Shown here: piece by piece, positions 6,602 to 60,521 of the stretch
Layout of the letters: every line of letters starts with the position of its first letter
Position numbering within the stretch: the stretch's first letter is position 1
Assembly (NCBI GenBank): GCA_037439845.1
Contig: JBBIVF010000001.1
Span: 1,842-65,841 of the forward strand
Source of the DNA: Candidatus Woesearchaeota archaeon
GTDB lineage: Archaea; Nanobdellota; Nanobdellia; Woesearchaeales; JBBIVF01
DNA length: 64,000 bases
Direction: 5' to 3'
The notes under the pieces: generated by a model
The model's database searches: none
Seen by the model: the letters and a program-made list of their open reading frames with translations, nothing else
Told to the model about the DNA's origin: nothing
Made by a program: the position numbers and the translations under genes

Positions 6602-9580
6602 TTATCTTGTTAATATATCTTGTGGAGTGCCTGTGCCATCATAAATATCTTTACCTAACTCAATCGGGTCTGACTTTTCTGATGCATAGGATATTTCTCC
6701 TGGAGGTTGATTGAGATTAAAGTATGTTCTAATATAATAACAATATTGCTGCTTTTGTAATGAGATTGGAGGACTTAGTGGATACTCGTATTTATCTTTT
6801 CCTAAAGGTGTTATTGATACTGACCTTAATTTATTATTGTCATTGCACAAGAACTCAATAATTTCATATTTTTTTACAATCTCAGGATATTCTTTCTCTA
6901 TTTCATTTGGCTGGAAAGAAATTATTAACTTATTGGCTGAAGTGTTCATAAACACAGTGGGTTTAGATGTGCTTAAGCCTGTATGGGTCGTTCCTAAGGT
7001 TATATTCATTTCTTCTGAATCATTGAAATTGTTTTGTGAATCTATAGCTCTTACCTTATAAGTATATGTACCTGAAAATTTCTCTACACCTATGTATGCG
7101 TATGTCTTATCATAAGGAATATCTGCCACAAATTGGAAATCCTCCATAATATTTGATCTTTTCCTGTATATCTTATATCTAATGTCTTTCTGGTCAATAG
7201 TATGAGGATTCCATGCTAATGCGAGCACAAGTCCTGCGTCTTTTATGTCTTTGAGCATTGTGATTTCTGGCTGAGGTGGAGGTGTAATATCCCATTTTCC
7301 TGCCTCTAGTTCATTTTTACACTTTTGATAATTAGGATATATTTTATTAATATGATTTTTTGTTTCTGGTGGAAGAGAACATTTAGATATACTGCAGGTT
7401 GTTGCATCACAACAGTACTTCATCACATTCCCTATACCCCAATTATATGCTGCCAGCATTAGTTTTATTCTCTCTTCAGGATCTGTAATTCTGTTTTTGA
7501 TTTTTTCTTCTAATTGCATAATCAGCCAATTATAATAAAACATTCCTCCGCCTATGTTAGAGTATGGCAAAAATCTTGAATCTATTTCTGGTAACTGCTG
7601 AGGTGCTATTGAATTTTTAAGTTCCTTTAATTCTTTGACATAATTTGAATCAGGAGAATTGCCTTTGTAATCTTTAAAGAATTTGGTTAATCCTGGTGAA
7701 GGCTTAGCAGACTTTTCCATGTCATATGCTGTACCTGGCATAAGTTGCAAAAGACCTACTGCTCCTTTATTAGAAATAGCGCAAGGATCTCCTGCAGATT
7801 CTTGTAGAATAGAGGCTATTGCTAAACATCTTGGAATTCCTGACTGCTGTTCCCAAAAGTCAATTTCTTTTTTATAGTCGGCATAGATACATTTAAGAAG
7901 ATTCTTGCTTGGACATTCTTCTTTCTTGCCGCATTTAACGAATGCATCTCCAATAGTTGAAACAAACAAAGGCTGCTTTTCTTCACCTGCTATACCTAAT
8001 GTCTCGTCCTTAATAGTTACAACAAATGCCTTGTCTAACTCATAAACATACGATATTGAGGCCTTGATATATCTAACTGTGAGAGGATTGTCTGGCTCCA
8101 TTATATTAGGGTCTATTTTAACTTGACACCTGAATGACTTGAAGTTCTTTATTTCTCTCAAATTTGATACAGAAACATTATATTCATTCACATCAGATTC
8201 CTGGCTTGAGACGAGCAGAGGTTCGAAGAAACAATTTTCTTTTACGAATTCTATCTCTTTTGGCAAAATCAATTTTAAAGATGTGATGTTGATTATTTTG
8301 CCATCTGGCCCCCATTCATTATCTATTGTAATTCCAAATTGAGCAAATGTGACAGGCGCATCTTGAGATTGCTTGACTTCAATCAAGGAAGGTCTCATTT
8401 CCATTCCTATGCTGATTGGTCCTTGGGTATAGATTGCTATTGGCTCTCTTGGTTCTATTTGATATTCTACATATGGATCTATATTCTGAGATTTTAATGT
8501 TCTTACTCTTTCAAAATCAATGAGATTTATCTGAAAGTAAGAGAATGTATCGAAATTGAATGTTGATGTGAAGTGCACTCTGTAAGAGCCAGGGTCTGAA
8601 TTGTACTGGCTTGGGCTGAACCTGCAGTTTATTGTTTCTTCGCCATAATTATAAATTGAGACACTTTTTGGAAATACTCTGTCTGCTTCTACTTTACTTC
8701 CTGAATATTCTATATAGCAATTATTAGTGATATTTATTTCTTGGTTTGAAAGCGTCCTTGCGCTCAATGTTGCCCAGACATCTACATCTTCATCAGAGTA
8801 GAACTCATCTGTTGCTCTTGAGAGGTCTTCAAGTTTTACTCCTAAAGGTGCATCTTTGTTTTCTTCTACTTGACCTATGTAATAATCAGATGTCGCGATC
8901 TGATATTGCTTATCCCAGAAATTTTTTATCGATGTTTTTGTTTCGGAAGTAAGTAAAGCTATGTTTGCCATCCACTTTCCAATTTCTTTTGTTGCAATAG
9001 AAGGGTTCATAATGAATTTGACTACTGACCTCGAGAGTGACAATGTGGACTGCGTCAAGAAAGCAATACCAGCTATCAATACAAGCACAACTAATATTAT
9101 CAAGAAAACCTTTATTATCGAGCCCAATGATGTGCCAACTCCTGAATGAGTTTCTATCTCTATTTTTGTTTCACCTGGTTTGGGGTGAAGTTTTTTTTCT
9201 CTTCTATGTGCAATGAATACAAACAAAAGCCAGAAAGGAAAAATGTCTATCTCAAAAAAACCACCTATACCTTCTATAGCCATGGCCAACCAGCTACTAT
9301 TTCCTATCACAGGTCTTAGCAAAAACCCACCAACAATATCGAATATTGCGCTTGCTGCTGAACCAAAACCCCAAAAAAGACTTAATAATGATAAAAGATC
9401 AAGGATTAATGCATAGACATAAGCCATTGTCCAGTTCCTTTTTGGTGCTTCTCCTGCTGTTGCGGATTTTGAAAGCAAACCTGCCTTATTTGACATCTTG
9501 TTTAGAGCATCTGCTATCTTGTCCATTGCACTTGCTGATTTAGAAGCAGAATCTTTTTTGAAAAAATTCTTTAAGCCCAT
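6602..9580 (-). CDS. Large multi-pass membrane protein with a lytic transglycosylase (SLT) domain and a beta-rich extracellular region
   Basis: 992 aa. N-terminal hydrophobic helices (YVYALILDLLSLLSLFWGF, FPFWLLFVFIAH, IIKVFLIILVVLVLIAGIAFL). SLT signature CLAIASILQESAGDPCAISNKGAVGLLQLMPGTAYD followed by LAAYNWGIGNVMKY. Confidence 0.7.
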   Translation of the reverse strand: MGLKNFFKKDSASKSASAMDKIADALNKMSNKAGLLSKSATAGEAPKRNWTMAYVYALILDLLSLLSLFWGFGSAASAIFDIVGGFLLRPVIGNSSWLAMAIEGIGGFFEIDIFPFWLLFVFIAHRREKKLHPKPGETKIEIETHSGVGTSLGSIIKVFLIILVVLVLIAGIAFLTQSTLSLSRSVVKFIMNPSIATKEIGKWMANIALLTSETKTSIKNFWDKQYQIATSDYYIGQVEENKDAPLGVKLEDLSRATDEFYSDEDVDVWATLSARTLSNQEINITNNCYIEYSGSKVEADRVFPKSVSIYNYGEETINCRFSPSQYNSDPGSYRVHFTSTFNFDTFSYFQINLIDFERVRTLKSQNIDPYVEYQIEPREPIAIYTQGPISIGMEMRPSLIEVKQSQDAPVTFAQFGITIDNEWGPDGKIINITSLKLILPKEIEFVKENCFFEPLLVSSQESDVNEYNVSVSNLREIKNFKSFRCQVKIDPNIMEPDNPLTVRYIKASISYVYELDKAFVVTIKDETLGIAGEEKQPLFVSTIGDAFVKCGKKEECPSKNLLKCIYADYKKEIDFWEQQSGIPRCLAIASILQESAGDPCAISNKGAVGLLQLMPGTAYDMEKSAKPSPGLTKFFKDYKGNSPDSNYVKELKELKNSIAPQQLPEIDSRFLPYSNIGGGMFYYNWLIMQLEEKIKNRITDPEERIKLMLAAYNWGIGNVMKYCCDATTCSISKCSLPPETKNHINKIYPNYQKCKNELEAGKWDITPPPQPEITMLKDIKDAGLVLALAWNPHTIDQKDIRYKIYRKRSNIMEDFQFVADIPYDKTYAYIGVEKFSGTYTYKVRAIDSQNNFNDSEEMNITLGTTHTGLSTSKPTVFMNTSANKLIISFQPNEIEKEYPEIVKKYEIIEFLCNDNNKLRSVSITPLGKDKYEYPLSPPISLQKQQYCYYIRTYFNLNQPPGEISYASEKSDPIELGKDIYDGTGTPQDILTR

Positions 9581-14311: not shown

Positions 14312-14674
14312 ATGCAGAAGAATATTGATATTGAACTCACATGCAGTCATTGCAAGAAAAGTTTTCCTGTAAAAGAATTGAAGTATGATATTTATAAAAA
14401 TCTATTATGCAAAAATTGTATTGAATTTAGATACAACAAAAAAGGGGTAGAACAAAAAATGTTAACCAATAAGCCTAAACAAACAGAAGACCCATATGAG
14501 AAGAAGGTAAAGTACAAATGCCAAAGCTGCAAAATGAGTTTCTTGCTGAAAAGAAGGCCAGACATAAGAAAAAGATGTCCTTATTGCGGAAGAGAGAATG
14601 TAATTGAACAGGATTTTGAGCTTAGCACTGATGAATTAATAGCTGAAGCCTCGAAAAAAGAGTATGACTTTTAA
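14312..14674 (+). CDS. Double zinc-ribbon protein
   Basis: Two CxxC...CxxC units (CSHCKK...CKNC and CQSCKM...CPYCGREN). Confidence 0.45.
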   Translation: MQKNIDIELTCSHCKKSFPVKELKYDIYKNLLCKNCIEFRYNKKGVEQKMLTNKPKQTEDPYEKKVKYKCQSCKMSFLLKRRPDIRKRCPYCGRENVIEQDFELSTDELIAEASKKEYDF

Positions 14675-15463
14675 TTGTATATCATAACTTTTTTATATAA
14701 TATATTTTTAGGAAAATCAATGAAACATATCTTACAAGGCTTTTCTTTTTTCAAAAATCCAAAGATACTATTGACTTTTCTCATTTTTGATACCTTAATA
14801 TTTTTCATTATAAAATTAGGAGAAAACGTTCCTAAATCTTTCTGGTATGCTCTTTTGTTTTTGTTTATGCTTCTATTGATAACTACAATCGCAAGATCTT
14901 TTGAGTATGGCCTTCTTTTTTTAGAGCATAAAAAGAAAAAAATAGAGATGATTGTTTCAAAAATATTTTTCAAAATTATGCTATCCAGCTTCATTGGCTA
15001 TATGGCTATGATAATAACATTAATTCTGATGGTTTTGGGATATTATTTTTTCAAAAATACATTGGATATGCGTTTCCTTAGTATTATTATTGTGCTTTTT
15101 GCTATGTTGATATTGTTGGCAATTTATTTCGTGACAAACATTGTTCAAATATTGCTGATAAAATACAAGAAAAAGAAAATCGGTTCATTATATTCAATTT
15201 ATTCATTTGCATTAATGCATTTAAAGAAAAAAGACATTTATTTCATAATATCAGTAGATATCTGCATAATATTGGCGTATTGCATAATAGCATTGATAAT
15301 GCTTTTTCTTACAGGAGGTCTGAAACCTAGGGTTGCTGGAAATGTTATTTTCAAATATTATTCTGTGCTGACATTCATCACTTGGCTTTTTACTTATGTA
15401 TCAAACAAATTTATGCTATTTAAGATGTTGGAACATGATAAAAGTCAAATTGATAAAGGTTAG
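14675..15463 (+). CDS. Polytopic membrane protein, unknown function
   Basis: 262 aa with about 6 hydrophobic helices. Confidence 0.45.
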   Translation: MYIITFLYNIFLGKSMKHILQGFSFFKNPKILLTFLIFDTLIFFIIKLGENVPKSFWYALLFLFMLLLITTIARSFEYGLLFLEHKKKKIEMIVSKIFFKIMLSSFIGYMAMIITLILMVLGYYFFKNTLDMRFLSIIIVLFAMLILLAIYFVTNIVQILLIKYKKKKIGSLYSIYSFALMHLKKKDIYFIISVDICIILAYCIIALIMLFLTGGLKPRVAGNVIFKYYSVLTFITWLFTYVSNKFMLFKMLEHDKSQIDKG

Positions 15464-19601: not shown

Positions 19602-21135
19602 TTATTTATCCCACTTCTTTATTTCTCTTAATTGCTTGAGGTCGTTTGAGTAGAGGTCCCTTATGTCTGTTATCTGGAAGTATTCCATTAGTTGTCTGTC
19701 AAGACCAGGGCCCCATGCCAATACAGGAACCCATTCTCCTAAAAGAGGCACAACTACTTCTGGTCTGAATATGCCTGCTCCTCCGAGTTCTATCCATTTC
19801 TTATGCACAGGATGAAATACATCTATTTCAACACTGGGTTCTGTATAGGGAAAATGTGCTGGCCTGAATCTTGCCTGAGGATATCCTATTTTTTTAAAAA
19901 ATTCTTTCAAGTAGCCCAAGAGATGCCTGAAATTGGCATTCTTATCCACTACTATGCCCTCAAATTGATTAAACTCAAAAAGATGGCTCCAATCAAGTGT
20001 TTCATTCCTAAAATTCCTGCCTACTGCAAAGAATTTCTTTGGCAGGTCTTTTAATTGCAATGATGCTAATGTTCTTGCACTTAGTACTGTTGTGTGTGTC
20101 CTCAGCACATTTTTTTTTTGCTTCTTCTGGATTCCATTTATATTGCCAGCCTGTGCTTCCTGTTGTTCCGCCATTCTCATGCGCATTCTTGACTCTTTCT
20201 ACAATTTTCTTGTCTGGCAAAATGCCTTTTTCAGGATCTTTGATAAAGAATGTATCTTGCATCTCTCTCACAGGATGGTCTTGGGCTGTAAAAAGAGCAT
20301 CAAAGTTCCAAAAACTTGTTTGAGTATATGCACCATTCATTTCCTCAAAACCAAACTCTAACCAAACTCTTTTGGCATAATCTGCCACATCAAGAACAAA
20401 ATGCCTTTTTGCTCCTGTTATTTTTGGCACATTAATTTTCACATCATATCTTCTGAACTCTTTTCCTTTCCAAGAGCCTGACTTGAGCATTTCTGGAGTA
20501 ACTGCATCAATGATTTCTTTATTTTCAATCTTTTGGCTCAATAATTGTCTGCATATTTCACTGGGAATCGCGATTATTGTCCTTAGTGATGTTTTCTTAA
20601 CTATTGACCTTCTTTTTGATAATTCTGTGAAAGCAAATGTCTGTTCTGGTGTTAAGTATTTTGGATCCACAGGAGATTTAGCAAGCAGGTCAAGAAGCTC
20701 TTCTTCAAATGACCTTTTTGTCAATATCTCTCTACCATAATCAGTTATCTTTATCTTTTTGCTTTCCAAAATTTCTATTGCCATCTTCTTTTTCAGCGTG
20801 CCAATAGAAACTGCTATCTCTTGTTCATTGAGTCCTTTTTTCAAGAGCTCCTCTTGAGTCAATGCTGCTTTTTCAATAGCCTTCAGAAAAACTTTTTCTG
20901 GCAGCCCATTTTTTTGGTATCTTTTTCCATTTTCATCAAGTTCAATAAGCTCTTTCTCCTGTTTTTCTATTTTTATTATTTCCTTGTTCGAGAGCCATTG
21001 CAATGCCCTCATTACTTCTACTTCACTCAGACCTGACTTTTGCTCTAGCTCTTTGACAGAAATCTGTTTAGTGAGATAAGGTAATATTCTTCTTTCAAGA
21101 GGATGCAATGAATTAACAAGTGTTTTGATGTCCAT
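19602..21135 (-). CDS. pheS: Phenylalanyl-tRNA synthetase alpha subunit, interrupted by an apparent 1-nt frameshift at an A10 run (20110-20119)
   Basis: Track ORFs 20008..21135 (N-terminal wHTH domains up to ...WNPEEAKK) and 19602..20186 (...KKNVLRTHTTVLSARTL...FRNE...GAGIFRPEV core) overlap in different frames. Deleting one A from the A10 run gives a continuous WNPEEAKKNVLRTHTT. Confidence 0.8.
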
Positions 21136-21243: not shown

Positions 21244-22053
21244 TTATTTGTTAATTGGCTTCATATCCTTCCAGGTCTGGTTGAATATTTCTTCCATTGC
21301 TGAAGCGAAATATGGAGTATTTACCCAGATCCCAACATCATAAGATGGATGCACGTCTTTGTCGTCAGCTATCATAAATATGAGCTCTTTTCCATCCACA
21401 ATAGTAAATCTGGCATCTTTTGGGCCTGCATGTCTTATTTCTGCCACTGAACTCAGTTCTTTAACTACATTTTGTGTTTCTTTTGTTATCGGAGCAGCAA
21501 TCCTTATCTTGACTCCTTTTTTTTTGAGCTTCTCGAAAACTGGCTTCAATGCTTCGGCTTTTCTTATGAGACCTTGTGCAGTTGTTTGCATTGTCACGGA
21601 TTTTTCTGCATTTCTCAAAGTAAGTTCGAGATGATTATAGAGATTGTGTCTTCCTTTCAGGGCTCCAGAGATGTCTGAAGGCTCAATTAATTCTATTCCT
21701 TGATTATGCAATGAATTCAATTCAGCTAGAACTTCTGTTTCTTTCAGATCATCCAGTCTTTTTATCATCTTTTCTGAATCTAGTTTTATATTCTTCTTAA
21801 CCCTCTCTACAACTTCTTCAGGAGGAACTGCGAGATATTTTATCGGCTTGCCTAGTTTTGTCACGCAAAAGCCTTTCTTCTCAAGCGACTCTAGAACATC
21901 ATATGACCTTGACCTTGGAACATTAGCAATGTCAGAAAGCTCTCCTGCTGTTGAAACTCCTCTTGAAAGAAGCGCTGCCCATATCTTTACTTCATATAAA
22001 TTCAAAGAAAAATATCGTCTTAATTTGCTTAAAAATTCTTCTTTAACTATCAT
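21244..22053 (-). CDS. TrmB-family transcriptional regulator
   Basis: N-terminal wHTH LSRGVSTAGELSDIANVPRSRSYDVLESLEKKGF plus a C-terminal TrmB-type effector domain. Paralog of 42437..43240. Confidence 0.75.
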   Translation of the reverse strand: MIVKEEFLSKLRRYFSLNLYEVKIWAALLSRGVSTAGELSDIANVPRSRSYDVLESLEKKGFCVTKLGKPIKYLAVPPEEVVERVKKNIKLDSEKMIKRLDDLKETEVLAELNSLHNQGIELIEPSDISGALKGRHNLYNHLELTLRNAEKSVTMQTTAQGLIRKAEALKPVFEKLKKKGVKIRIAAPITKETQNVVKELSSVAEIRHAGPKDARFTIVDGKELIFMIADDKDVHPSYDVGIWVNTPYFASAMEEIFNQTWKDMKPINK

Positions 22054-26427: not shown

Positions 26428-27937
26428 ATTTTTCATTATCGGTATTTTTGCTATTTTATTCTTGTTTTTACTTCCTAATACTTTGGCAAAAAACAGTTGC
26501 TCAAGAGATGGATGCGAGATAACCATAACAATAAATATGGTCGCGTCTGGAGGAAATCAGGAGACAATTGACAATTGGATAAATGACATAGAAGATGTGT
26601 GGAATGGTCCTGTCCAAGGAGATGGAGCTTCTCCGACATATGGAGAATGCAAATGCCCTGTCAATTTTGAGGTTAATTTCTCTGGTTTTGTTACTACGTG
26701 TAATGGCACCTCAGGAAAATATCATTGCATTGAGATAACGCCAGAAGCTGCCAAGGATGAAGCAGGAGAAACATACAGAGGATATATGGACGGTGTTTCA
26801 AATAATGGCTCTTCCCTGAGAGGATGGTGGAGTTCATCAATGATGAACACTCCTGTAAGAGTTGGTGATGAAACATTTGATACTGTTCATGATGCTGCGC
26901 ATGAAGCAGGACATATGTTGGGGTTGGATGATGACTATGACAAAGAAACAGGAAGATATGGAAATAATATAATGGGAAGAACTTGGGGAGATGATGCCAG
27001 GCCAACACAAGAGCAAATAAATAAAGCTGTTGAAAACAACTGCAAAGAAGAAGAGAGAAAATGCCCTGATGAGTGCTGCTGTCCGAATGGAAATATAGAT
27101 AAGAACAAAGATGAAGAGTGTGACCCGCTTGCATCGCCTCAAGGATGCGGAAAAAATGAAGATTGCGGTTTTGATTGTAAATGCATAAAGAGGCCTTTTT
27201 GCGGAGACGGAAACATAAGTGAAGAAATAGGAGAAGAGTGTGAGCCAGATGCAAAGCCAACTGGATGCAAAGAGGATGAAGAATGCACTGAAGAGTGTTT
27301 GTGCGAGAAAAAACAGGAGAATATTACAATAAATATTACTTCTCCACCAAACAATGCCAAGATATCAGGAGAAGAAACAGTAAGGACTGCTGTGAGCTCT
27401 GTTGAAAAGATAGAAAAAGTGAAATTCTTCCTAGATGATGAGCCGCAATACACTGATTATTCTTTGCCATACAGTTGGACTTTTGATTCTAGGTCATTTG
27501 ATCCAGGAGAATATGTATTAAAAGTTATTGCGTATAGTATTTCTGGAAATACTGCTGAAGATGAGATTGAAATAACAATAGAAGAGCAAAATGAGAGTGA
27601 TGATGGCGGAGGTGGAGGTGGTGGAAGTAACAGAGACAATATTACTGTTTGCGGTAATGGAGAGTGTGCTTTTGAGAGTGGCGAGAATTGCCTGAATTGT
27701 CCTCAAGATTGTGTGTGTGAAGGAATCTGCAATCCTGAAGACGAGATGGCTGATGAAATTGGTTGCGTATATGCTGAAATTGCTTGTGGAAATGGTTTGT
27801 GCGAACCTCAAAATTTTGAAAATTGCCTAACTTGTGTATCTGATTGTATTTGTATTCCGCCGTATTTATGCGACCCTGAGAATGCGTATGCTGATTTAAT
27901 GGGATGTTATGAGCCTTTGCCTCCTACTGCAGGCTAG
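26402..27937 (+). CDS. Secreted Cys-rich multidomain protein with a zincin-like HExxH motif
   Basis: Signal peptide. HEAGHMLGLDDDYD. Repeated Cys-rich modules (KCPDECCCPNGNIDKNKDEECDP; CGDGNISEEIGEECEPDAKPTGC; VCGNGECAFESGENCLNCPQDC; ACGNGLCEPQNFENCLTCVSDC). A beta-rich middle domain and a GGGGGGGS linker. Confidence 0.55.
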   Translation: MRKMKNSNKFFIIGIFAILFLFLLPNTLAKNSCSRDGCEITITINMVASGGNQETIDNWINDIEDVWNGPVQGDGASPTYGECKCPVNFEVNFSGFVTTCNGTSGKYHCIEITPEAAKDEAGETYRGYMDGVSNNGSSLRGWWSSSMMNTPVRVGDETFDTVHDAAHEAGHMLGLDDDYDKETGRYGNNIMGRTWGDDARPTQEQINKAVENNCKEEERKCPDECCCPNGNIDKNKDEECDPLASPQGCGKNEDCGFDCKCIKRPFCGDGNISEEIGEECEPDAKPTGCKEDEECTEECLCEKKQENITINITSPPNNAKISGEETVRTAVSSVEKIEKVKFFLDDEPQYTDYSLPYSWTFDSRSFDPGEYVLKVIAYSISGNTAEDEIEITIEEQNESDDGGGGGGGSNRDNITVCGNGECAFESGENCLNCPQDCVCEGICNPEDEMADEIGCVYAEIACGNGLCEPQNFENCLTCVSDCICIPPYLCDPENAYADLMGCYEPLPPTAG

Positions 27938-29487
27938 AAAAATAAAATTTTTATCAAAAAAATTATTATTCCTGCCAATATTGCATAAAGTATGCAGGGC
28001 AGAAGATTAAACCTGATTATTTTTCCTTCTTGGCCTTTCAAATTGACAACAGATGTTGCTGCAACAACATTATGTATAGCAATCATATTTCCTGCTGCAC
28101 CGCCTACTGTCTGCAATGCAAGAATAAGGAAGATAGGCATACCTAATAAAATTGCAGTGTGTTCTTGAAAAGAGGCAAAAAGCATGTTTGAGACAGTGTT
28201 ACTGCCTGCTATAAATGCTCCGAAAACTCCGATAAGAGGACTAATTAAAATGAACAATTGTCCTGACATTGCTGCTGCTGCCTTGGCAAGCACAACAGGC
28301 ATGCTCTCTAAACCTGAAAAATTTTTGCCTGAATATATAAGTAATTGCACTAAAGCAACAGCAAAAAAAAGCACAATAAAAGTGTAGAGTCCTTTTTTCA
28401 ATGTGATTTTGACTGCTCTTTTTGTCTCCTTTTTTGTTGCGTGGAATATTAATAATGATATTATTGCTACGAGAAGGAATATTATTCCAGGAGATAATAA
28501 AGGATAGAATGAATTTGAAACGCCAGAACCGAAGATATTATTCAGATTAATTGCAAGTTTTTTTAAAACAGGATTTATTTCTCTTATTCTTGTCAGGAAT
28601 AATAAGAGTGCTGCCAGTAGATATGGAAATATAGCAAAGAATGCTTTTTTTCTCTCTATTTTTATTTTTCTTATCTTAATCTTAGGCAAGAACCATTGTT
28701 GTTTTGCTGCATAGATGGTAATGATGAGGCCTATTATCCCGCCTAAAAAAGAGGGAAATTCAGGACCGATGAAAATTGCTATCAGCAGATATGGAACTAC
28801 AAAACTTGCACCTGAAAACAGGGCGAATTTCCATAATTCAAGGCCTTTTTTGAATGAATTATGCATGAATCTTGAGATTACACAAGAAACAAGCAATGGC
28901 ATGAATAATCCGATTATTGAATGAACCAATGCAATGTATATTGATATGTGCCTGAGATTTTGAAGAGATTGATCTGTTATTGTGGTGCCAAGGCCAATCA
29001 AGATAGGTGTGCCGATTGCTCCGAAACTTACTGCGACTGCATTACTTATTAATGCCACGATTACAGATGCTATTGCCGGTATTCCTAAGCCAACCATTAA
29101 TGGAGCTGCTAATGCTGCTGGTGTGCCAAAGCCTGCTGCTCCTTCAATGAATACGCCGAATGACCATGCTATTATTATCGCATAAACTCTTTTATCTTCA
29201 GATAATTGTTTGAATAATGAATCTATTACAGGCAGCATGTGCGTGTCTTTCAAGACTTCAAGCAAAAGTATTGCTCCAAGAACAATAAGAAGTATTTCAA
29301 AAGCAACAAACAAAGCTTTTAGTGCTGTTGCTGCTATTACTAATGAAATGACTTTCCAGAAAAAATAGCTTATGACTAAGGTAATAAGAAAAGTAATTGG
29401 CATTGCTTTTATAGCAGGCATTTTTAGGATAATAATAAGAAAAAGAAGTAACACAAAAGGTAGAAGGGCTAGCAATATTTCATACAT
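27934..29487 (-). CDS. Polytopic permease, L-lactate permease (LctP)-like
   Basis: 517 aa with about 13 helices. The N-terminus and Gly-rich helices resemble the LctP family. Confidence 0.5.
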   Translation of the reverse strand: MYEILLALLPFVLLLFLIIILKMPAIKAMPITFLITLVISYFFWKVISLVIAATALKALFVAFEILLIVLGAILLLEVLKDTHMLPVIDSLFKQLSEDKRVYAIIIAWSFGVFIEGAAGFGTPAALAAPLMVGLGIPAIASVIVALISNAVAVSFGAIGTPILIGLGTTITDQSLQNLRHISIYIALVHSIIGLFMPLLVSCVISRFMHNSFKKGLELWKFALFSGASFVVPYLLIAIFIGPEFPSFLGGIIGLIITIYAAKQQWFLPKIKIRKIKIERKKAFFAIFPYLLAALLLFLTRIREINPVLKKLAINLNNIFGSGVSNSFYPLLSPGIIFLLVAIISLLIFHATKKETKRAVKITLKKGLYTFIVLFFAVALVQLLIYSGKNFSGLESMPVVLAKAAAAMSGQLFILISPLIGVFGAFIAGSNTVSNMLFASFQEHTAILLGMPIFLILALQTVGGAAGNMIAIHNVVAATSVVNLKGQEGKIIRFNLLPCILYAILAGIIIFLIKILFF

Positions 29488-30218: not shown

Positions 30219-31700
30219 TCATTTTTTGTATTTGTGGTACTTATCTACTTCTTTCTTTAGCCACTCTGGCCAGAATTTTTCCTCAATAGGATAAGAAGCG
30301 TCTAATGCTTGGTAAGAACATTTGCCGATAACATCTTTTATTGCTTCTAAAGAATTGTAGCGCACTTTTAACTCGTCATAGTTTACTTTTCTTGGAAGAG
30401 GTATGTCTTTTGTATTATTAAGCGTATCAATAATCATCTTTGCCACTGCCTCGTTTATTTCCTCTCTTGATTTAGAATAAGGGTTTTTGTTTTTTGAACG
30501 CTCTTTGTACTGCAAGTTCTAAAAGACACTCTTGACCTCTGTGCCATTCTTTAAATGAAGGAAAAAGCATAGGGCCATATGATATCCAAAATTCCAAGCT
30601 TTCTATGCCTGAGTTATACAAAGACCATATAGAGCCTCCTTCACTAACACTGCCCTTGACAATGCTATCATCACCCATAAGAACTCTTTTGCCTTGAACA
30701 ATAGAATCAATTGCTCCGAATTTCAGACCCACCTCGATACTGCGCTGGCGGGAATCCTGTTCTTGAAAAGTCCGGACTGCTTGCGCTTGCTTGATAAGGC
30801 CATATTCAACTTTTTGGTTCAGGGCTTTTGCTATTCCTCTAGTAACGCCTTTTCCTGAATCAGGATTATCTACTATGATATCTATTTCTGGCGCTCCATA
30901 GTAATCCACCAATTTCTTTCCGAGACCTGCCCTTATTTCTGCTATTGACATCTCTCCGAAATTTGAATTTGGATGACCGAAATAAACTGCCTGAAAGGCG
31001 TCTTTCAAGTTTAATGAATTTTCTAAAATGAAATTCTCTATTCCATTATGGTCTGCGATGATCATTTCTGCTCCTAGAAACTCTCTTTCAGCATAACCGC
31101 CTATTCTTCTATGAGAACAAGATTCTGAACTTATTACAAAAACATTGTTTATTTTTCCGAAACAAAAACGGCTCGAATCCTGTTTTATCTTTTATACCTA
31201 TGAGTTTTGTCTCTTTTCCGTCGTATATCAAGGCGAGCAATGCAAAAGTTGCTCTTCCTTTAAGTTTTTTTATAAAGTCGCAACCGACTTCTGGGTTAAT
31301 TTCTCCGTATTTTTTCTATGTATTTATGAAGCAATGCTCCGAGAATTTCTGTCTTAATTCTTTGTTTCAAAATTATAATCTTTTTTAAGCTCTTTTACTA
31401 GGTCATCGTGTTTTACAAGATAACCATCCATTGTAACTGCGATTTCAAATTTAGAATGTTTTTTCGGGTTTATTCTTATTGGTTCTGCATTGATTGGCGC
31501 AGGGTATTTGTTCTTTGTATAGCCCACATTTCCTATTGCTGCTATGGACTCTAGCTTTTGGAATATTCTTATTTTTCTTTCATCGATAACATTACCGATG
31601 AGACCCAGCCCTTTTTCCTACTCAATACCTTTGTTGTTGCCGACTGCAATCCCTGCGCAAGTTTTGCCTCTGTGCTGACACGCGCCTATTGCCAGAAAAA
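30219..31700 (-). pseudogene. purF: Multiply disrupted amidophosphoribosyltransferase (purF) remnant
   Basis: Minus-strand pieces in different frames: MDGVAGVYGKDENLVKKIFLAIGACQHRGKTCAGIAVGNNKGIE, then an in-frame TAG, then KGLGLIGNVIDE...IAAIGNVGYT...IAVTMDGYLVKHDDLVKELKK; a PRTase domain (IDIIVDNPDSG...RVLMGDDSIVKGS) in ORF 30472..31065; the C-terminus in ORF 30219..30515. Catalytic Cys1 is replaced by Asp and the HNGN motif is lost. Confidence 0.5.
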
Positions 31701-31754
31701 TTTTTTTTACAAGATTTTCATCTTTCCCGTAAACTCCTGCTACGCCATCCATTT

Positions 31755-32501
31755 TTAATCGTTTTCTACTCTAGGCGCAAGAATAAAAGACAATTGTAGT
31801 TTGTCAAGAACCGCATATTCAAGCTTCAATGGATAATTTGAATTGAATTGCAAAGTAATATTATTTGAGAGTTTTGAGGCATTAATCATCTTTTTGAGGT
31901 ATTCTATAGAAAATTTGGCCTTTATTGTCTCTTCTGTTTCTGAGTGGATTTTTATTTCCTCATTTGGCTCAAGCTCTATTTTCACATCAGAAAGATCGCC
32001 TTCTGCTTTGATAATAAATTTATCTGTTTCACCTACCAGAGAGACTGATTCAGCAACAACATCAACATCTTCAATTGCTTCATTGAAAACCATTGACGGA
32101 GCCTTGATTGTTATTGGAAAATTGAGTTCTGGTATCTTCTGCTCTTTCTCATCCATCTCTATTATAGGTATCTTAAATGTTCTTGTTGTATTTGATTTTA
32201 GCCTTATAACAAGCTTTGATGTTCCTTCCATCTCCAAGGTCAGCATATCATTAGGTTTTGCCCTTTTCAGGATTTGCTTGAGGTTTGTCAGGTTGAGCGC
32301 AATCTCTTCCTCATGCTCCAGTTTGAAATCAACAAAACAACTTGAGAAAAGCTTGAAAATCACCATTGCAACATTTGCAGGGTCCATTGCCACTAATTCT
32401 ATGCCGTTCTTGGAAATCTTAAATCTTGCCTCATTGACAAGCTCGGAAATAATTGAAATTGGATCCCTGAGATATTTTGGTTCTGCTAGTGTGAGTTTCA
32501 T
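31755..32501 (-). CDS. pcn: DNA polymerase sliding clamp PCNA
   Basis: 248 aa. MKLTLAEPKYLRDPISIISELVNEARFKISKNGIELVAMDPANVAMVIF is a typical PCNA N-terminus. Confidence 0.85.
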   Translation of the reverse strand: MKLTLAEPKYLRDPISIISELVNEARFKISKNGIELVAMDPANVAMVIFKLFSSCFVDFKLEHEEEIALNLTNLKQILKRAKPNDMLTLEMEGTSKLVIRLKSNTTRTFKIPIIEMDEKEQKIPELNFPITIKAPSMVFNEAIEDVDVVAESVSLVGETDKFIIKAEGDLSDVKIELEPNEEIKIHSETEETIKAKFSIEYLKKMINASKLSNNITLQFNSNYPLKLEYAVLDKLQLSFILAPRVEND

Positions 32502-42436: not shown

Positions 42437-43240
42437 TTATTTCATTGGTTTCATGTTTTTCCAATGAGCATCAAAAAGCTTTTCCATTGTGTTTGCGAAG
42501 AAATCTGTATTGACCCAAACACCAACATCATAAGAAGGATGCACATCCTTGTCATCAAGAAGCATGAAGGCCATCTCTTTTCCGTCAACAATGACGAATC
42601 TTGAAACAAAGTCGCTTGAATGCCTGACATCAGCAAACTTCGAAACTGCTTTGAGAGCTTCTTTTGAATCTGGTGTTATTGGTGCTGCTATTCTTATATT
42701 TACACCTCTTTCTTTGGCTTTTTCGAGAAGTCTCTTGAAATTCTCTGCTTTTCTCAAGAAACCTTGCTTAGTTGTACATATTGTAATAGATTTTTTGGCA
42801 TTTTTTAACATCAATTCAATGTGGTTATAGATGTTATTTCTGCCTTTGAAAGCGCCAGAAAGATCAGTTGAATCGACGAGCTCTATGCCTTGATTGTGCA
42901 ACATTTTTAATTCTTCGAGAACTTCAGAGCCTTTTAATGATTCCAGTGCTTTTGCTTGTCTTTCTGATTCTTCTTTAATTCTTTTTTTTACTCTTTCAAA
43001 AACTTCTTCAGGAGGCACTGCTAAATATTTTATGGGCTTGCCAAGTTTCATCATTATAAAGCCTTTCTTTTCAAGTGACTCGAGAACATCATATGACCTT
43101 GACCTTGGAACATTAGCAATGTCAGAAAGCTCTCCTGCTGTTGAAACTCCTCTTGATAAAAGAGCAGTCCAAAGTTTTGATTCATAAGAATTTAGACCAA
43201 ACTCTTTGAGTTTATTTAAAAATTCTTTTTGCACAATCAT
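42437..43240 (-). CDS. TrmB-family transcriptional regulator (paralog of 21244..22053)
   Basis: Identical wHTH segment WTALLSRGVSTAGELSDIANVPRSRSYDVLESLEKKGF. The nucleotides 43073-43145 are identical to 21889-21961. Confidence 0.75.
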   Translation of the reverse strand: MIVQKEFLNKLKEFGLNSYESKLWTALLSRGVSTAGELSDIANVPRSRSYDVLESLEKKGFIMMKLGKPIKYLAVPPEEVFERVKKRIKEESERQAKALESLKGSEVLEELKMLHNQGIELVDSTDLSGAFKGRNNIYNHIELMLKNAKKSITICTTKQGFLRKAENFKRLLEKAKERGVNIRIAAPITPDSKEALKAVSKFADVRHSSDFVSRFVIVDGKEMAFMLLDDKDVHPSYDVGVWVNTDFFANTMEKLFDAHWKNMKPMK

Positions 43241-56905: not shown

Positions 56906-57050
56906 CTTTAATCGGGTTTTTTTTGGTTCTTTTAAAAAGTTTTCTAATACTGAAACACCATATGTCCTTTGTTTCGTGTGGAGGTGAAATTTTAGAAAAG
57001 AGTAGTTAGAACAGAGTAGTCTGGTTTTATTCAGTGAATATTTAGTGAAT

Positions 57051-57190
57051 TATAAGTAAAAGTTTATATTATTATAAGTAAAAGTTTATTATAAGTAAAA
57101 GTTTATATTATTATAAGTAAAAGTTTATATTATTATAAGTAAAAGTTTATTATAAGTAAAAGTTTATATTATTATAAGTAAAAGTTTATA
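57051..57190. repeat. Seven tandem copies of the 17-bp core TATAAGTAAAAGTTTAT, spaced 22/17/22/22/17/22; candidate origin-recognition (ORB-like) repeats
   Basis: Core ATAAGTAAAAGTTTAT starts at 57052, 57074, 57091, 57113, 57135, 57152 and 57174. It lies about 630 bp upstream of orc1/cdc6, next to a stretch that is more than 85% AT. Confidence 0.8.
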
Positions 57191-57199
57191 GAGGGTGTT

Positions 57200-57819: not shown

Positions 57820-59058
57820 ATGAATAACGAAAAACCCAAAATCTCTGATTATTTTGAATCATTCATCAAAAAAACACCTATTTTCTTGGATAAAAAGGTA
57901 CTTCAAGCACCCTATATGCCAGAAAATATTCCTCACAGAGATAATGAAGTGCAAAAAATCGCAAACATACTTGCGCCTGTCTTAAGAATGGAAAAACCTT
58001 CAAATCTTTTCATATATGGAAAAACAGGGACCGGAAAGACACTATCTGTAAAGCACGTCTCCAATGAAATCCTCAAAATTGCTCAAAGAGAAAATATCAA
58101 TGTGAAAATATTCTATATTAATTGCAAATTGAAAAAAGTAACAGACACAGAATATAGATTACTGGCTCATCTTGTCAGTGGTTTCGGAAAAGAAATACCT
58201 CCAACAGGATTGCCTACTGATGAAGTATATAACATTTTTTTCAAGCTGCTTGATTCTGAAAAACAACTTGTAATATTGGTGCTGGATGAGATAGATCAAT
58301 TATATAAGACCGGAAATGAAATACTATATAATCTAACCAGGATAAATTCAGAGTTAAAAAATTCACAATTATCCATTGTAGGAATATCAAATGACCTGAC
58401 ATTCACCGACTCATTAGATCCAAGAGTAAAATCATCATTATCGGAAGAGGAGATAATATTTCCGCCATACAATGCAATCCAGCTTCAAGACATACTTTTC
58501 CAGAGAGCGAAATATGCATTCAGAGAAAACTCAATAACAGAAGGAGTAATTCACAAATGCGCGGCATACGCTGCAAGAGAACACGGAGATGCGAGAAGAG
58601 CACTTGAGCTTCTGAGAGTAGCAGGAGAATTGGCAGAAAGAGAAGGCTCTGATATTGTTCAATTAAAACACATAGATGAGGCAGAAGAAAAAATAGAGAA
58701 AGACAGGGTAATCGATATAACAAAGACACAACCAAAACAATTCCAGGCAACACTTTTCGCAATTCTCAGCATTGAAAACAAACAAAAAAACGACAAGCTA
58801 TCAAAACACAACAAACCAGCAATATATACAGGAGATGTCTATGACCTCTATAAAAGCATATGCGACAAGATAGGATTGAGACCCCTGACACAAAGAAGAG
58901 TGTCTGACATCCTCGCCGAGTTAGATATGATGGGAATAATCAATGCAAAAGTAATATCATATGGAAGATACGGCAGGACAAGAGAAATAACCGTATCATT
59001 GTCTCAGCAAGTGAGAGAAAATATAGAAAAAAACCTAAAGCAAGAACTCCATCTTTAG
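57820..59058 (+). CDS. cdc6: Orc1/Cdc6 replication initiator
   Basis: Walker A GKTGTGKT, Walker B LDEID and sensor motifs. C-terminal winged helix. 412 aa. Confidence 0.9.
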   Translation: MNNEKPKISDYFESFIKKTPIFLDKKVLQAPYMPENIPHRDNEVQKIANILAPVLRMEKPSNLFIYGKTGTGKTLSVKHVSNEILKIAQRENINVKIFYINCKLKKVTDTEYRLLAHLVSGFGKEIPPTGLPTDEVYNIFFKLLDSEKQLVILVLDEIDQLYKTGNEILYNLTRINSELKNSQLSIVGISNDLTFTDSLDPRVKSSLSEEEIIFPPYNAIQLQDILFQRAKYAFRENSITEGVIHKCAAYAAREHGDARRALELLRVAGELAEREGSDIVQLKHIDEAEEKIEKDRVIDITKTQPKQFQATLFAILSIENKQKNDKLSKHNKPAIYTGDVYDLYKSICDKIGLRPLTQRRVSDILAELDMMGIINAKVISYGRYGRTREITVSLSQQVRENIEKNLKQELHL

Positions 59059-59081: not shown

Positions 59082-60521
59082 ATGAAAAAGAAAGAGATAA
59101 TTCAAGAGCTATTGAAAAAAGGCATTCTGATTTCAAAAGACCTTGAGGAAGAGGATTTCAATTTCATAGACCAAGAAAAATTAAACATCATTATCGCAAA
59201 CAATCCATTCATTCTGGACAAAAAATTACTTTTTTCCTTGTTTCCGGAAAAACAAGCACAGGGCAATTTCGAGATAGTAATGAATTATACCAAAACACCT
59301 GTCAAAAGAGAGATATCTCACTTTATTCAACATTTCGAGAAAAGATTTGAGGCAATAAAGAAAATATTAATGCAAAGAGACGAGCTCCAGAACATATTAT
59401 CAATAAATAGAATCTTCACAAAAGGTCAAAAAGAGCAGGTGGCGCTGATAGGGATGGTATATAACAAGCAGACAACAAAAAACGAGAACATAATACTCGA
59501 AATCGAGGACAAAACAGGCGTGGCAAAAGTGCTGGTCAATAAAAGCAAACCCGAATTACATAAAGAGGCAAAGGATATTGTGCTTGATGAAACCATAGGT
59601 GTTGTCGGCAGTATCGGAAACGGAATACTATTCGCGAATGAAATATATTTTCCAGATATTCCCACAACAAAAGAGCTTAAAAAAGCGCCTGAAGAAGTAT
59701 ATGCTCTTTTCCTGTCTGATACTCATGTAGGCAACAAAAAATTCCTGAAAGAGGAGTTCTCAAGGTTTTTGGACTGGCTTAATCAAAGAATAGGAGATGA
59801 AAATCAGAAGAACGTGGCATCAAAAGTCAGATACATATTCATCACAGGAGACCTTGTTGAGGGCGTCGGATATTATCCCAACCAAGAGAGTGAATTAGAC
59901 CCTGAAACGCCGGATATCAAGGCCCAGTATTCAAAACTTGCCTTTTATCTCAGCCAAATTCCGGAAAATATCACGATTTTCATATGCGCAGGAGACCACG
60001 ATGCCATGAGAATAGCACAACCCCAAGCACCTCTGTATGATGATTTCGCAGAAGACCTGTATAAAATAAATAATGTAAAAATACTCTCAAACCCATCTAT
60101 TGTCACAATACATAAAACACAAAAATTTCCAGGAATAGATGTGCTTCTTTATCACGGATACTCATTTATTTATTATTCAGACACAGTAGAAAGCATAAGG
60201 TCGCAAGGAGGTATGGAGAGAGCAGACCAAATAATGAAATTCCTGTTGAGAAGGAGGCATCTTTCACCCACTCATTCTGCCTCACTTTACATACCTGACC
60301 CGGAAAAAGATTATCTTATGATTGAAAAGGTTCCTGACATTATAACTTCTGGCCACATACACAAAGTTACCATCTCCAACTACAGAAACGTGTCTTTACT
60401 AAACAGCTCCTGCTGGTTGCCTTTGACAGATTATCAGGAAAAAAGAGGAATAAACCCTCATCCTGCGAGAGTGCTGTGCATGAATCTCCAGACAAGAGAA
60501 ACAAAGGTGCTCAGGTTTTAA
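59082..60521 (+). CDS. polD1: DNA polymerase II (PolD) small subunit DP1
   Basis: 479 aa. OB domain then a calcineurin-like phosphoesterase domain (LFLSDTHVG, ITGDLVEG, GDHD, GHIH). Confidence 0.85.
   Translation: MKKKEIIQELLKKGILISKDLEEEDFNFIDQEKLNIIIANNPFILDKKLLFSLFPEKQAQGNFEIVMNYTKTPVKREISHFIQHFEKRFEAIKKILMQRDELQNILSINRIFTKGQKEQVALIGMVYNKQTTKNENIILEIEDKTGVAKVLVNKSKPELHKEAKDIVLDETIGVVGSIGNGILFANEIYFPDIPTTKELKKAPEEVYALFLSDTHVGNKKFLKEEFSRFLDWLNQRIGDENQKNVASKVRYIFITGDLVEGVGYYPNQESELDPETPDIKAQYSKLAFYLSQIPENITIFICAGDHDAMRIAQPQAPLYDDFAEDLYKINNVKILSNPSIVTIHKTQKFPGIDVLLYHGYSFIYYSDTVESIRSQGGMERADQIMKFLLRRRHLSPTHSASLYIPDPEKDYLMIEKVPDIITSGHIHKVTISNYRNVSLLNSSCWLPLTDYQEKRGINPHPARVLCMNLQTRETKVLRF

What the first reader, a model, noticed from the sequence alone, without database searches (positions are those of the whole stretch)
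30219..31700. Degraded purF (amidophosphoribosyltransferase) remnant
Recognisable GATase-II and PRTase segments of PurF are present in order. They are broken by an in-frame TAG, at least two frame changes and loss of catalytic residues (N-terminal Cys replaced by Asp; HNGN replaced by TMDGY). This looks like genuine decay of de novo purine biosynthesis. That is expected for a nutritionally dependent, host-associated, small-genome archaeon, and it offers a dated snapshot of genome reduction.
Basis: partly seen in the sequence, partly recalled or inferred. Interest (0 to 1): 0.5.

Follow-up and report, generated by a model that had tools for sequence, protein, structure and literature searches.

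The report
Broken copy of PurF-like gene
This is a disabled copy (one premature stop, four one-base insertions) of a conserved but uncharacterised relative of the purine enzyme PurF; that family never had PurF's glutamine-splitting residues, so the locus records loss of an unknown function, not decay of purine synthesis.

Summary
On the minus strand, 31752..30219, a PurF-homologous gene is interrupted by an in-frame TAG (31618-31620) and four +1 frameshifts, not two. Removing four single bases restores a 509-codon frame.

The gene is not purF. The reconstruction matches hundreds of intact ~490-aa proteins end to end (51-56% identity, E~1e-170). All 120 examined carry Asp at PurF's Cys1 position, and 119 carry Asp where PurF has the Asn of HNGN. 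The "lost catalytic residues" are therefore fixed family traits, not decay.

Family members and the reconstruction score 122-135 bits on the NCBI purF model (cutoff 350); canonical PurFs score 520-527. In five bacterial gene neighbourhoods a canonical Cys-PurF and this paralogue lie within 10 kb of each other.

The lesions cluster in this one gene: 3 of 17 homopolymer runs are shifted here versus 1 of 565 in other genes (p=8e-5). It is most likely a recent pseudogene. Read support could not be checked, and pheS also carries a frameshift in an A10 run.

The locus says nothing about purine biosynthesis. The pseudogene itself is ordinary; the uncharacterised Cys-less PurF-like family is mildly interesting.

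The parts
30219..31752 (-). Whole disrupted gene: pseudogene of an Asp-type (N-terminal Met-Asp-Gly), Cys-less PurF paralogue
   Evidence: Three-frame translation and tblastn against intact homologues. The reconstruction scores 779.8 bits on the family profile.
31750..31752 (-). Native ATG start, 2 nt after the TAA of the upstream PCNA gene (31755-32501)
   Evidence: This spacing suggests co-transcription with PCNA (inference).
31618..31620 (-). In-frame TAG at codon 45, where homologues have Ile/Val
   Evidence: TAG is an ordinary stop in this contig (12 of 52 genes).
31420..31434 (-). TMDGY motif in the place of PurF's HNGN oxyanion motif; a family trait
31356..31357 (-). Frameshift 1: one extra T in AAT-T-AAG (ETKN|KTEIL)
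31310..31315 (-). Frameshift 2: one extra A in an A6 run (HKYIEK|YGE)
31164..31168 (-). Frameshift 3: one extra T in a T5 run (FEPF|CFG)
30472..31065 (-). Longest surviving ORF (197 aa). It covers the phosphoribosyltransferase core, with NPDSGKGV (30867-30844), RTFQE (30774-30760) and the PRPP loop GDDSIVKG (30675-30652).
   Evidence: It matches family-profile positions 229-423 at 294.9 bits (P0241).
30490..30495 (-). Frameshift 4: one extra A in an A6 run (RAF|KNKNPY)
30219..30515 (-). C-terminal fragment ORF (98 aa) with the family's QALDASYP motif, an insert of about 16-19 residues relative to homologues (within 30431-30369), and the TAA stop at 30219-30221

Best explanation
The locus is a recently inactivated gene (a pseudogene) for a member of a compact, strongly conserved family of Cys-less PurF paralogues.

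Shown: intact members are ~490 aa, and a modelled intact member has PurF's two-domain fold. The phosphoribosyltransferase half keeps the PRPP/Mg loop (DDSIV[RK]G), the PDSG-type loop and the RTF flexible-loop motif. In the N-terminal Ntn half every glutamine-site residue of PurF is replaced by a different, (near-)invariant residue: Cys1->Asp, Arg73->Gly, Asn101->Asp, Asp127->Lys. Both testable Fe-S ligand positions of B. subtilis PurF are also replaced.

Inferred: the intact protein cannot hydrolyse glutamine by the Ntn mechanism. It most likely still binds PRPP and either transfers the phosphoribosyl group to free ammonia or another nucleophile, or uses the former glutamine pocket as a ligand-sensing site.

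In this window, translation from the native ATG (2 nt after the PCNA stop) ends at codon 45. Four single-base insertions, three of them in A/T homopolymer runs, scramble the frame downstream, so no full-length product is expected. The amino-acid sequence has not drifted beyond what intact deep-branching members show, so inactivation is recent relative to the family's divergence. The likely cause is replication slippage in an AT-rich (33.5% GC) genome once selection on the gene was relaxed (inference).
For: Family identity:
- 598 hits, of which the best 120 are 489-536 aa, 51-56% identical over 99-100% of the query, with E down to 2e-171.
- The reconstruction scores 779.8 bits on a family profile that does not include it; canonical PurF scores 155-164.
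- All family signature residues are present in the window copy.

Not purF:
- purF model: 134.9 bits against a cutoff of 350, whereas canonical PurFs score 520-527.
- Canonical Cys-PurF lies within 10 kb of the paralogue in L030, L032, L057, L090/L091 and L092.

Fold:
- AF2 model of P0001 has pLDDT 84; the top Foldseek hits are PurF 1gph/1ao0, TM 0.73-0.80.
- Residue mapping uses the profile-to-1ao0 alignment, E=5e-45.

Lesions:
- define them. TAG is a normal stop in this contig.
- They are confined to this gene. 3 of 17 homopolymer runs of 5 or more are shifted here, against 1 of 565 in the other 53.7 kb of ORFs (Fisher p=8e-5). Poisson clustering gives p~5e-5 after correction.
- Flanking genes (PCNA 2 nt upstream, Tag glycosylase 122 nt downstream) and a 1172-codon PolD DP2 frame are intact.

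Recency and residence:
- 18 of 179 near-invariant columns deviate, against 21 of 187 and 17 of 181 for intact members P0119 and P0045.
- GC is 37.2%, against 34.9 +/- 2.1% for neighbouring genes, so this is not a recent import.
Against: - No reads were available, so none of the five lesions is verified.
- The same contig has a +1 insertion in an A10 run that splits the essential pheS gene. That looks like either a homopolymer assembly error or a slippage-rescued site, so similar errors here cannot be excluded.
- All four indels go in the same direction (+1), as a systematic error would.
- The protein sequence shows no excess drift, which fits an intact gene with sequencing errors as well as it fits a very young pseudogene.
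- The family's function is unknown, so 'what was lost' is inference only.
Confidence: 0.75

Rival explanations
1. The gene is intact and functional in the organism. The TAG and the four extra bases are sequencing or assembly artefacts, for example homopolymer errors or a locally poor consensus.
For: - pheS, an essential gene, also carries a +1 insertion in a homopolymer (A10) in this contig.
- Three of the four shifts here are in homopolymers, and all four are +1.
- The amino-acid sequence is as well conserved as in intact members.
Against: - The runs involved are short (A6, T5, A6, TT). 564 other runs of 5 or more in ORFs, including several A8-A10 runs, are in frame.
- Five lesions fall within 1.5 kb, against one in 53.7 kb elsewhere (p~5e-5).
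- The TAG is a substitution, not a length error.
- The lesions stop exactly at the gene's borders.
Confidence: 0.17
2. One reading: a decaying canonical purF (glutamine PRPP amidotransferase) that lost its catalytic Cys and HNGN motif during decay, marking loss of de novo purine synthesis.
For: PurF is the closest characterised family by sequence and fold. The host looks like a reduced DPANN archaeon.
Against: - Asp2 is invariant in all 120 intact homologues, and 119 of 120 have Asp at the HNGN Asn position.
- The purF model score is 134.9 against a cutoff of 350, identical to intact family members.
- Canonical PurF coexists with the paralogue.
- No pur genes lie in the window.
- Intact copies sit in other DPANN contigs with no pur genes nearby.
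Confidence: 0.03
3. The locus is still partly functional. Either the 197-aa ORF (30472-31065) is expressed as a stand-alone phosphoribosyltransferase core, or the full product is recovered by transcriptional or ribosomal slippage at the runs.
For: The 197-aa ORF starts at a Met and retains the PRPP loop, the RTF motif and the PDSG-type loop. Slippage rescue at poly(A) tracts is known in reduced endosymbiont genomes (my own knowledge, not checked here).
Against: - The ORF lacks the N-terminal third of the PRTase-flanking structure and the conserved C-terminal region.
- Rescue would need four separate slips at short runs plus TAG read-through.
- No homologue has such an architecture: all 120 top hits are full-length.
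Confidence: 0.05

Closest known systems
PurF, glutamine PRPP amidotransferase (NCBIfam TIGR01134; structures 1AO0/1GPH B. subtilis, 1ECF E. coli)
   Same: - The two-domain fold is the same: Ntn-type amidotransferase domain plus type I phosphoribosyltransferase domain (TM 0.73-0.80).
- The PRPP loop DDSIV[RK]G, the RTF motif, Tyr74 and the QHRG motif are conserved.
   Different: - Identity to PurF structures is 19-24%; the family and the reconstruction score 122-135 bits on the purF model against a cutoff of 350.
- Cys1->Asp, Arg73->Gly, Asn101->Asp, Asp127->Lys, Ile335->Gln.
- Two B. subtilis Fe-S ligands are replaced (Cys236->Asp, Cys382->Ser).
- It is not linked to pur operons.
- It coexists with a canonical PurF.
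PurF' of Crenarchaeota (Brown et al. 2011, Biol Direct 6:63, PMC3261824)
   Same: - Both are PurF paralogues that lack the N-terminal Cys and are therefore judged unable to act as glutamine amidotransferases. Both coexist with a true PurF and have unknown function.
- The billion-scale search shows a graded series of Cys-less relatives (N-termini MAG/MSG/MGG/MPG/MKG, with an xMDGx motif) between this family and PurF.
   Different: - PurF' usually has Ala or Val at the Cys position and clusters with pur genes. This family has an invariant Asp and has lost both Fe-S ligand positions that could be mapped.
- Its only recurrent neighbour is carB (38 of 75 loci).
- It is found mainly in Thermodesulfobacteriota, with a few DPANN and Methanosarcinales-labelled MAGs.
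- Whether it shares a clade with crenarchaeal PurF' was not tested.
Homopolymer-slippage pseudogenes in AT-rich reduced genomes (general phenomenon; my own knowledge)
   Same: There are several independent disabling lesions in one gene with intact neighbours, and the indels sit in A/T runs.
   Different: All indels here are insertions. No close relative is available to show the intact ancestral state or to date the event.

Membership tests
purF (amidophosphoribosyltransferase, TIGR01134 equivalog) | Whole-protein score at or above the curated cutoff (350 bits) | tested here: not met
   Reconstruction 134.9 bits; intact family members 122-135; canonical deltaproteobacterial PurFs 520-527.
purF (amidophosphoribosyltransferase, TIGR01134 equivalog) | N-terminal Cys nucleophile of the Ntn glutaminase domain | tested here: not met
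   Asp aligns with Cys1 of 1ao0. It is Asp in all 120 homologues and in the window copy.
purF (amidophosphoribosyltransferase, TIGR01134 equivalog) | Glutamine-binding and oxyanion residues (E. coli Arg73, Asn101, Gly102, Asp127) | tested here: not met
   Gly, Asp, Gly and Lys respectively, each (near-)invariant in the family.
purF (amidophosphoribosyltransferase, TIGR01134 equivalog) | Type I PRTase PRPP-binding loop (DDSIVRG) and RTF flexible-loop motif | tested here: met
   GDDSIVKG at 30675-30652 and RTFQE at 30774-30760; both are invariant in the family.
purF (amidophosphoribosyltransferase, TIGR01134 equivalog) | Two-domain PurF fold | tested here: met
   Shown for the intact relative P0001: AF2 pLDDT 84, Foldseek top hits 1gph/1ao0, TM 0.73-0.80. 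The window copy itself was not modelled.
purF (amidophosphoribosyltransferase, TIGR01134 equivalog) | Accompanied by the other de novo purine genes in the genome | tested here: inconclusive
   No pur gene among ~50 ORFs of the 64-kb window. The rest of the genome could not be reached.
Asp-type Cys-less PurF-like family (unnamed; 'hypothetical protein' at NCBI) | Full-length match to the family profile | tested here: met
   779.8 bits on profile A1, which does not contain it; 99-100% query coverage against the best 120 hits.
Asp-type Cys-less PurF-like family (unnamed; 'hypothetical protein' at NCBI) | Signature residues Asp2, Gly78, Asp110, Lys134, Asp250, Gln337, Ser406 (P0001 numbering) | tested here: met
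   All are present in the reconstruction.
Asp-type Cys-less PurF-like family (unnamed; 'hypothetical protein' at NCBI) | Uninterrupted ~490-codon reading frame | tested here: not met
   One TAG and four +1 frameshifts.
PurF' (Brown et al. 2011) | PurF homologue lacking the N-terminal Cys | tested here: met
   definition taken from PMC3261824.
PurF' (Brown et al. 2011) | Located next to purF and other pur genes | tested here: not met
   Not in this window, nor in the DPANN loci L005, L006 and L008. In some bacteria it lies 4-10 kb from purF.
PurF' (Brown et al. 2011) | Same phylogenetic cluster as crenarchaeal PurF' | not tested
Pseudogene | Several independent disabling lesions relative to intact homologues, with neighbouring genes intact | tested here: met
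Pseudogene | Lesions supported by the underlying reads | not testable with these tools
   No read data. The contig is a singleton in the collections.

The most novel reading that the evidence does not exclude
The Asp-type PurF-like family would be an uncharacterised PRPP-dependent enzyme with a repurposed former glutaminase pocket. Examples would be an ammonia-dependent phosphoribosylamine synthase tied to nitrogen and carbamoyl-phosphate metabolism, or a transferase to a new nucleophile. Some genome-reduced DPANN archaea would keep it for a salvage or cofactor role unrelated to de novo purine synthesis. This window would then capture one DPANN lineage in the act of discarding it, giving a natural knockout.
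Probability: 0.35. Interest if true: 0.55.

Novelty: new variant of a known kind. Interest (0 to 1): 0.3.

Why it matters
- For genome interpretation, this is a caution. Homology to PurF, plus the automatic label 'amidophosphoribosyltransferase' that one source (JGI) gives many family members, would make a reader score a purine-pathway step as present or decaying. The protein belongs to a paralogous family that cannot use glutamine and coexists with true PurF.
- For biology, the family is large: relatives were confirmed at 138 places in a collection holding one genome per species, and there are hundreds of metagenomic proteins. It is very conserved (60-75% identity across bacteria and archaea).
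- It sits immediately downstream of carB in half of the bacterial loci and is uncharacterised, so it is a reasonable target for enzymology.
- The pseudogene itself is an ordinary example of gene loss in a small AT-rich genome.

Tried and rejected
- TAG recoding: rejected. TAG ends 12 of 52 genes in the window.
- Recent horizontal import: rejected. GC is 37.2%, within the native range.
- Excess amino-acid drift as a sign of long decay: not seen. 18 of 179 columns deviate, against 21 of 187 in an intact member.
- Finding the same population or close relatives to see an intact or identically broken copy: failed. Exact look-ups of PCNA, the 197-aa ORF and RNase J found no contig record. All are singleton clusters from one NCBI contig of 68,917 bp. 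The next RNase J relative is 64% identical on a 2-kb contig.
- The species-genome scan kept only the best 80 of 138 loci, and the window's genome was not among them.
- Conserved neighbours other than carB: none. Methyltransferase, TruA, sigma-54 activator and amt-glnK-glnD each occur in 9 loci or fewer.
- Defence-system models: no hit.
- Literature on this family: none found, only PurF'.
- The AlphaFold-database fold library was not available.
- A rough NJ tree places the window copy as the deepest branch of the family. I do not rely on this, because of the long outgroup branch and the method.

Full report
**Observation**

The minus strand between 31752 and 30219 carries a PurF-homologous gene in pieces. 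The ORF list and a three-frame translation give the reading path:
- The frame opens at ATG 31752, only 2 nt after the TAA of the upstream PCNA gene.
- It runs to an in-frame TAG at 31618-31620 (codon 45) and then continues in the same frame.
- It must then shift by +1 four times: in AAT-T-AAG (31356-31357), in an A6 run (31310-31315), in a T5 run (31164-31168) and in an A6 run (30490-30495).

Deleting one base at each site restores a 509-codon frame that ends at TAA 30219-30221 and has only the TAG inside. The longest surviving ORF is 197 aa (30472-31065). A first hand-joined reconstruction matches Pfam GATase_7 and aligns with the NCBIfam purF model over residues 3-384. The true start is at 31752, not 31700.

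**What the gene is**

A search of 5.8 billion proteins with the reconstruction returned 598 hits. The best 120 are intact proteins of 489-536 aa that align over 99-100% of the query at 51-56% identity, with E down to 2e-171. NCBI names them 'hypothetical protein'; one source (JGI) calls them amidophosphoribosyltransferase. All those inspected begin Met-Asp-Gly and have T(M/L)DGY where PurF has HNGN.

I aligned a profile of 22 members to B. subtilis PurF (1ao0, E=5e-45) and counted residues over all 120 homologues. The PurF residue at each position is replaced as follows:
- Cys1 -> Asp (120/120)
- Arg73 -> Gly (120/120)
- Asn101 -> Asp (119/120)
- Asp127 -> Lys (118/120)
- Ile335 -> Gln (120/120)
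- Fe-S ligands Cys236 -> Asp and Cys382 -> Ser (both 120/120)

The PRPP loop DDS..G, the RTF motif, Tyr74 and the QHRG motif are invariant. The window copy has every one of these states. Members are 56-75% identical to one another across bacteria and archaea.

**Not purF**

- On the curated purF equivalog model (cutoff 350 bits) the reconstruction scores 134.9. Intact family members score 122-135, and three canonical deltaproteobacterial PurFs taken from the fetched loci score 520-527.
- On a profile of the family, the reconstruction (not part of the profile) scores 779.8 bits and the canonical PurFs 155-164.
- A canonical PurF sits 4-10 kb from the paralogue on the same contig in L030, L032, L057, L090/L091 and L092. 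It has a propeptide, the Cys nucleophile, HVRY, HNGN and four Fe-S cysteines. The last two neighbourhoods have the order carA-carB-purF ... sigma-54 activator ... paralogue.
- The two proteins coexist, so they are paralogues with different roles.

An AF2 model of the closest intact relative (P0001; pLDDT 84) has the complete PurF fold, with TM 0.73-0.80 to 1gph/1ao0 and 23-24% identity.

**Distribution and context of the family**

- A scan of one genome per species confirmed relatives at 138 places. The best 80 loci are almost all Desulfobacterales, Desulfatiglandales, Syntrophus or other Thermodesulfobacteriota. There are also three Woesearchaeota/Nanoarchaeota MAGs, two MAGs labelled Methanosarcinales and one Anaerolineales.
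- The only recurrent neighbour is carB. It lies immediately upstream on the same strand in 38 of 75 loci that have enough flank (gaps 14-259 bp).
- Every other neighbour cluster occurs in 9 loci or fewer. An amt-glnK-glnD group occurs in 6.
- In DPANN contigs the gene sits among unrelated housekeeping genes, with no pur genes nearby.
- A search of 1.84 billion cluster representatives shows a compact core (748 and 611 bits). It is followed by a graded series of other Cys-less relatives (N-termini MDG, MKG, MSG, MAG, MGG, MPG; an xMDGx motif; many still with Fe-S cysteines) before the plateau of ordinary PurFs.
- The only description of such proteins that I found is PurF' of Crenarchaeota. This is a Cys-less paralogue next to purF, of unknown function and judged unable to act as an amidotransferase (PMC3261824). 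Nothing was found on this family itself.

**Are the lesions real?**

Evidence that they are:
- TAG is an ordinary stop in this contig (12 of 52 genes), so recoding is excluded.
- The window has 778 homopolymer runs of 5 or more. Of these, 17 lie in this gene and 3 are shifted. Of the 565 runs inside the other 53.7 kb of ORFs, only one is shifted (Fisher p=8e-5). Five lesions in 1.5 kb against one elsewhere gives p~5e-5 after correcting for the number of genes.
- The flanking genes are intact, and so is a 1172-codon PolD DP2 frame.

This clustering is what relaxed selection on one gene produces. Uniform sequencing error does not produce it.

Evidence against:
- No reads could be examined.
- The one other shift splits the essential pheS gene at an A10 run, which may be an assembly error.
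- All four indels are +1.
- The protein shows no excess drift: 18 of 179 near-invariant columns deviate, against 21 of 187 and 17 of 181 in intact deep-branching members.

I therefore rate a real, recent pseudogene at about 0.75 and an artefact at about 0.17. GC (37.2% against 34.9 +/- 2.1%) argues against a recent import.

**How it works**

Shown: with the lesions as assembled, translation from the native start stops after 44 residues, and no reading frame covers both domains.

Inferred: no functional product is made. The intact family protein binds PRPP through a preserved type I phosphoribosyltransferase site but cannot generate ammonia from glutamine. It either uses free ammonia or another nucleophile, or acts through a re-specified ligand pocket (Asp2/Asp110/Lys134). 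The link to carB, and in some lineages to nitrogen-regulation genes, is compatible with an ammonia-related role. It could equally be a historical remnant of a purF duplication downstream of carB.

**Verdict**

The window contains no pur gene, and the rest of the genome was unreachable because the contig is a singleton from NCBI. The pseudogene is ordinary. The underlying Cys-less PurF-like family is an uncharacterised variant of a known fold and gives the finding modest interest.

Noticed in passing
window 19602-21135 (-), run at 20110-20119: pheS (PheRS alpha subunit) is split into two overlapping ORFs (20008-21135 and 19602-20186) by one extra A in an A10 run. Pfam tRNA-synt_2d profile positions 2-76 fall in the first ORF and 77-245 in the second. 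For an essential gene this means either a homopolymer assembly error or a site rescued by transcriptional slippage.
   Followed up: partly
window 57011-57193: About eight tandem copies of TTATAAGTAAAAGTTTATA (spacing 17 or 22 nt) lie in the 915-bp intergenic region upstream of cdc6/orc1 (57820-59058). That gene is followed by PolD DP1 (59082-60521) and DP2 (60520 to the window end). This is a candidate replication origin with origin-recognition-box-like repeats.
   Followed up: partly
window 6602-9580 (-): A 992-aa protein has a lytic transglycosylase (SLT) domain (E=1.4e-14) in an otherwise archaeal contig. It may be a murein-degrading enzyme aimed at a bacterial partner or prey, or a horizontally acquired gene.
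   Followed up: no
window 14312-15463 (+): ORFs 14312-14674 and 14675-15463 are in the same frame and are separated only by a TAA. This could be two adjacent genes, or one gene with an in-frame stop.
   Followed up: no
window 21244-22053 (-) and 42437-43240 (-): There are two paralogous TrmB-family transcription regulators of almost the same length (269 and 267 aa) in one 64-kb stretch of a small genome.
   Followed up: no
window 27934-29487 (-): A full-length L-lactate permease (E=9e-108) lies two genes downstream of the pseudogene. This fits uptake of fermentation products from a partner organism.
   Followed up: no
loci L090, L091, L092, L057 (bacterial): In Desulfatiglandales-like contigs the order carA-carB-purF(canonical)-...-sigma-54/GAF activator-...-Asp-type PurF-like gene recurs. 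In 38 other loci the paralogue directly follows carB, the position that canonical purF occupies here. This suggests that the paralogue arose by duplication of purF downstream of carB.
   Followed up: partly
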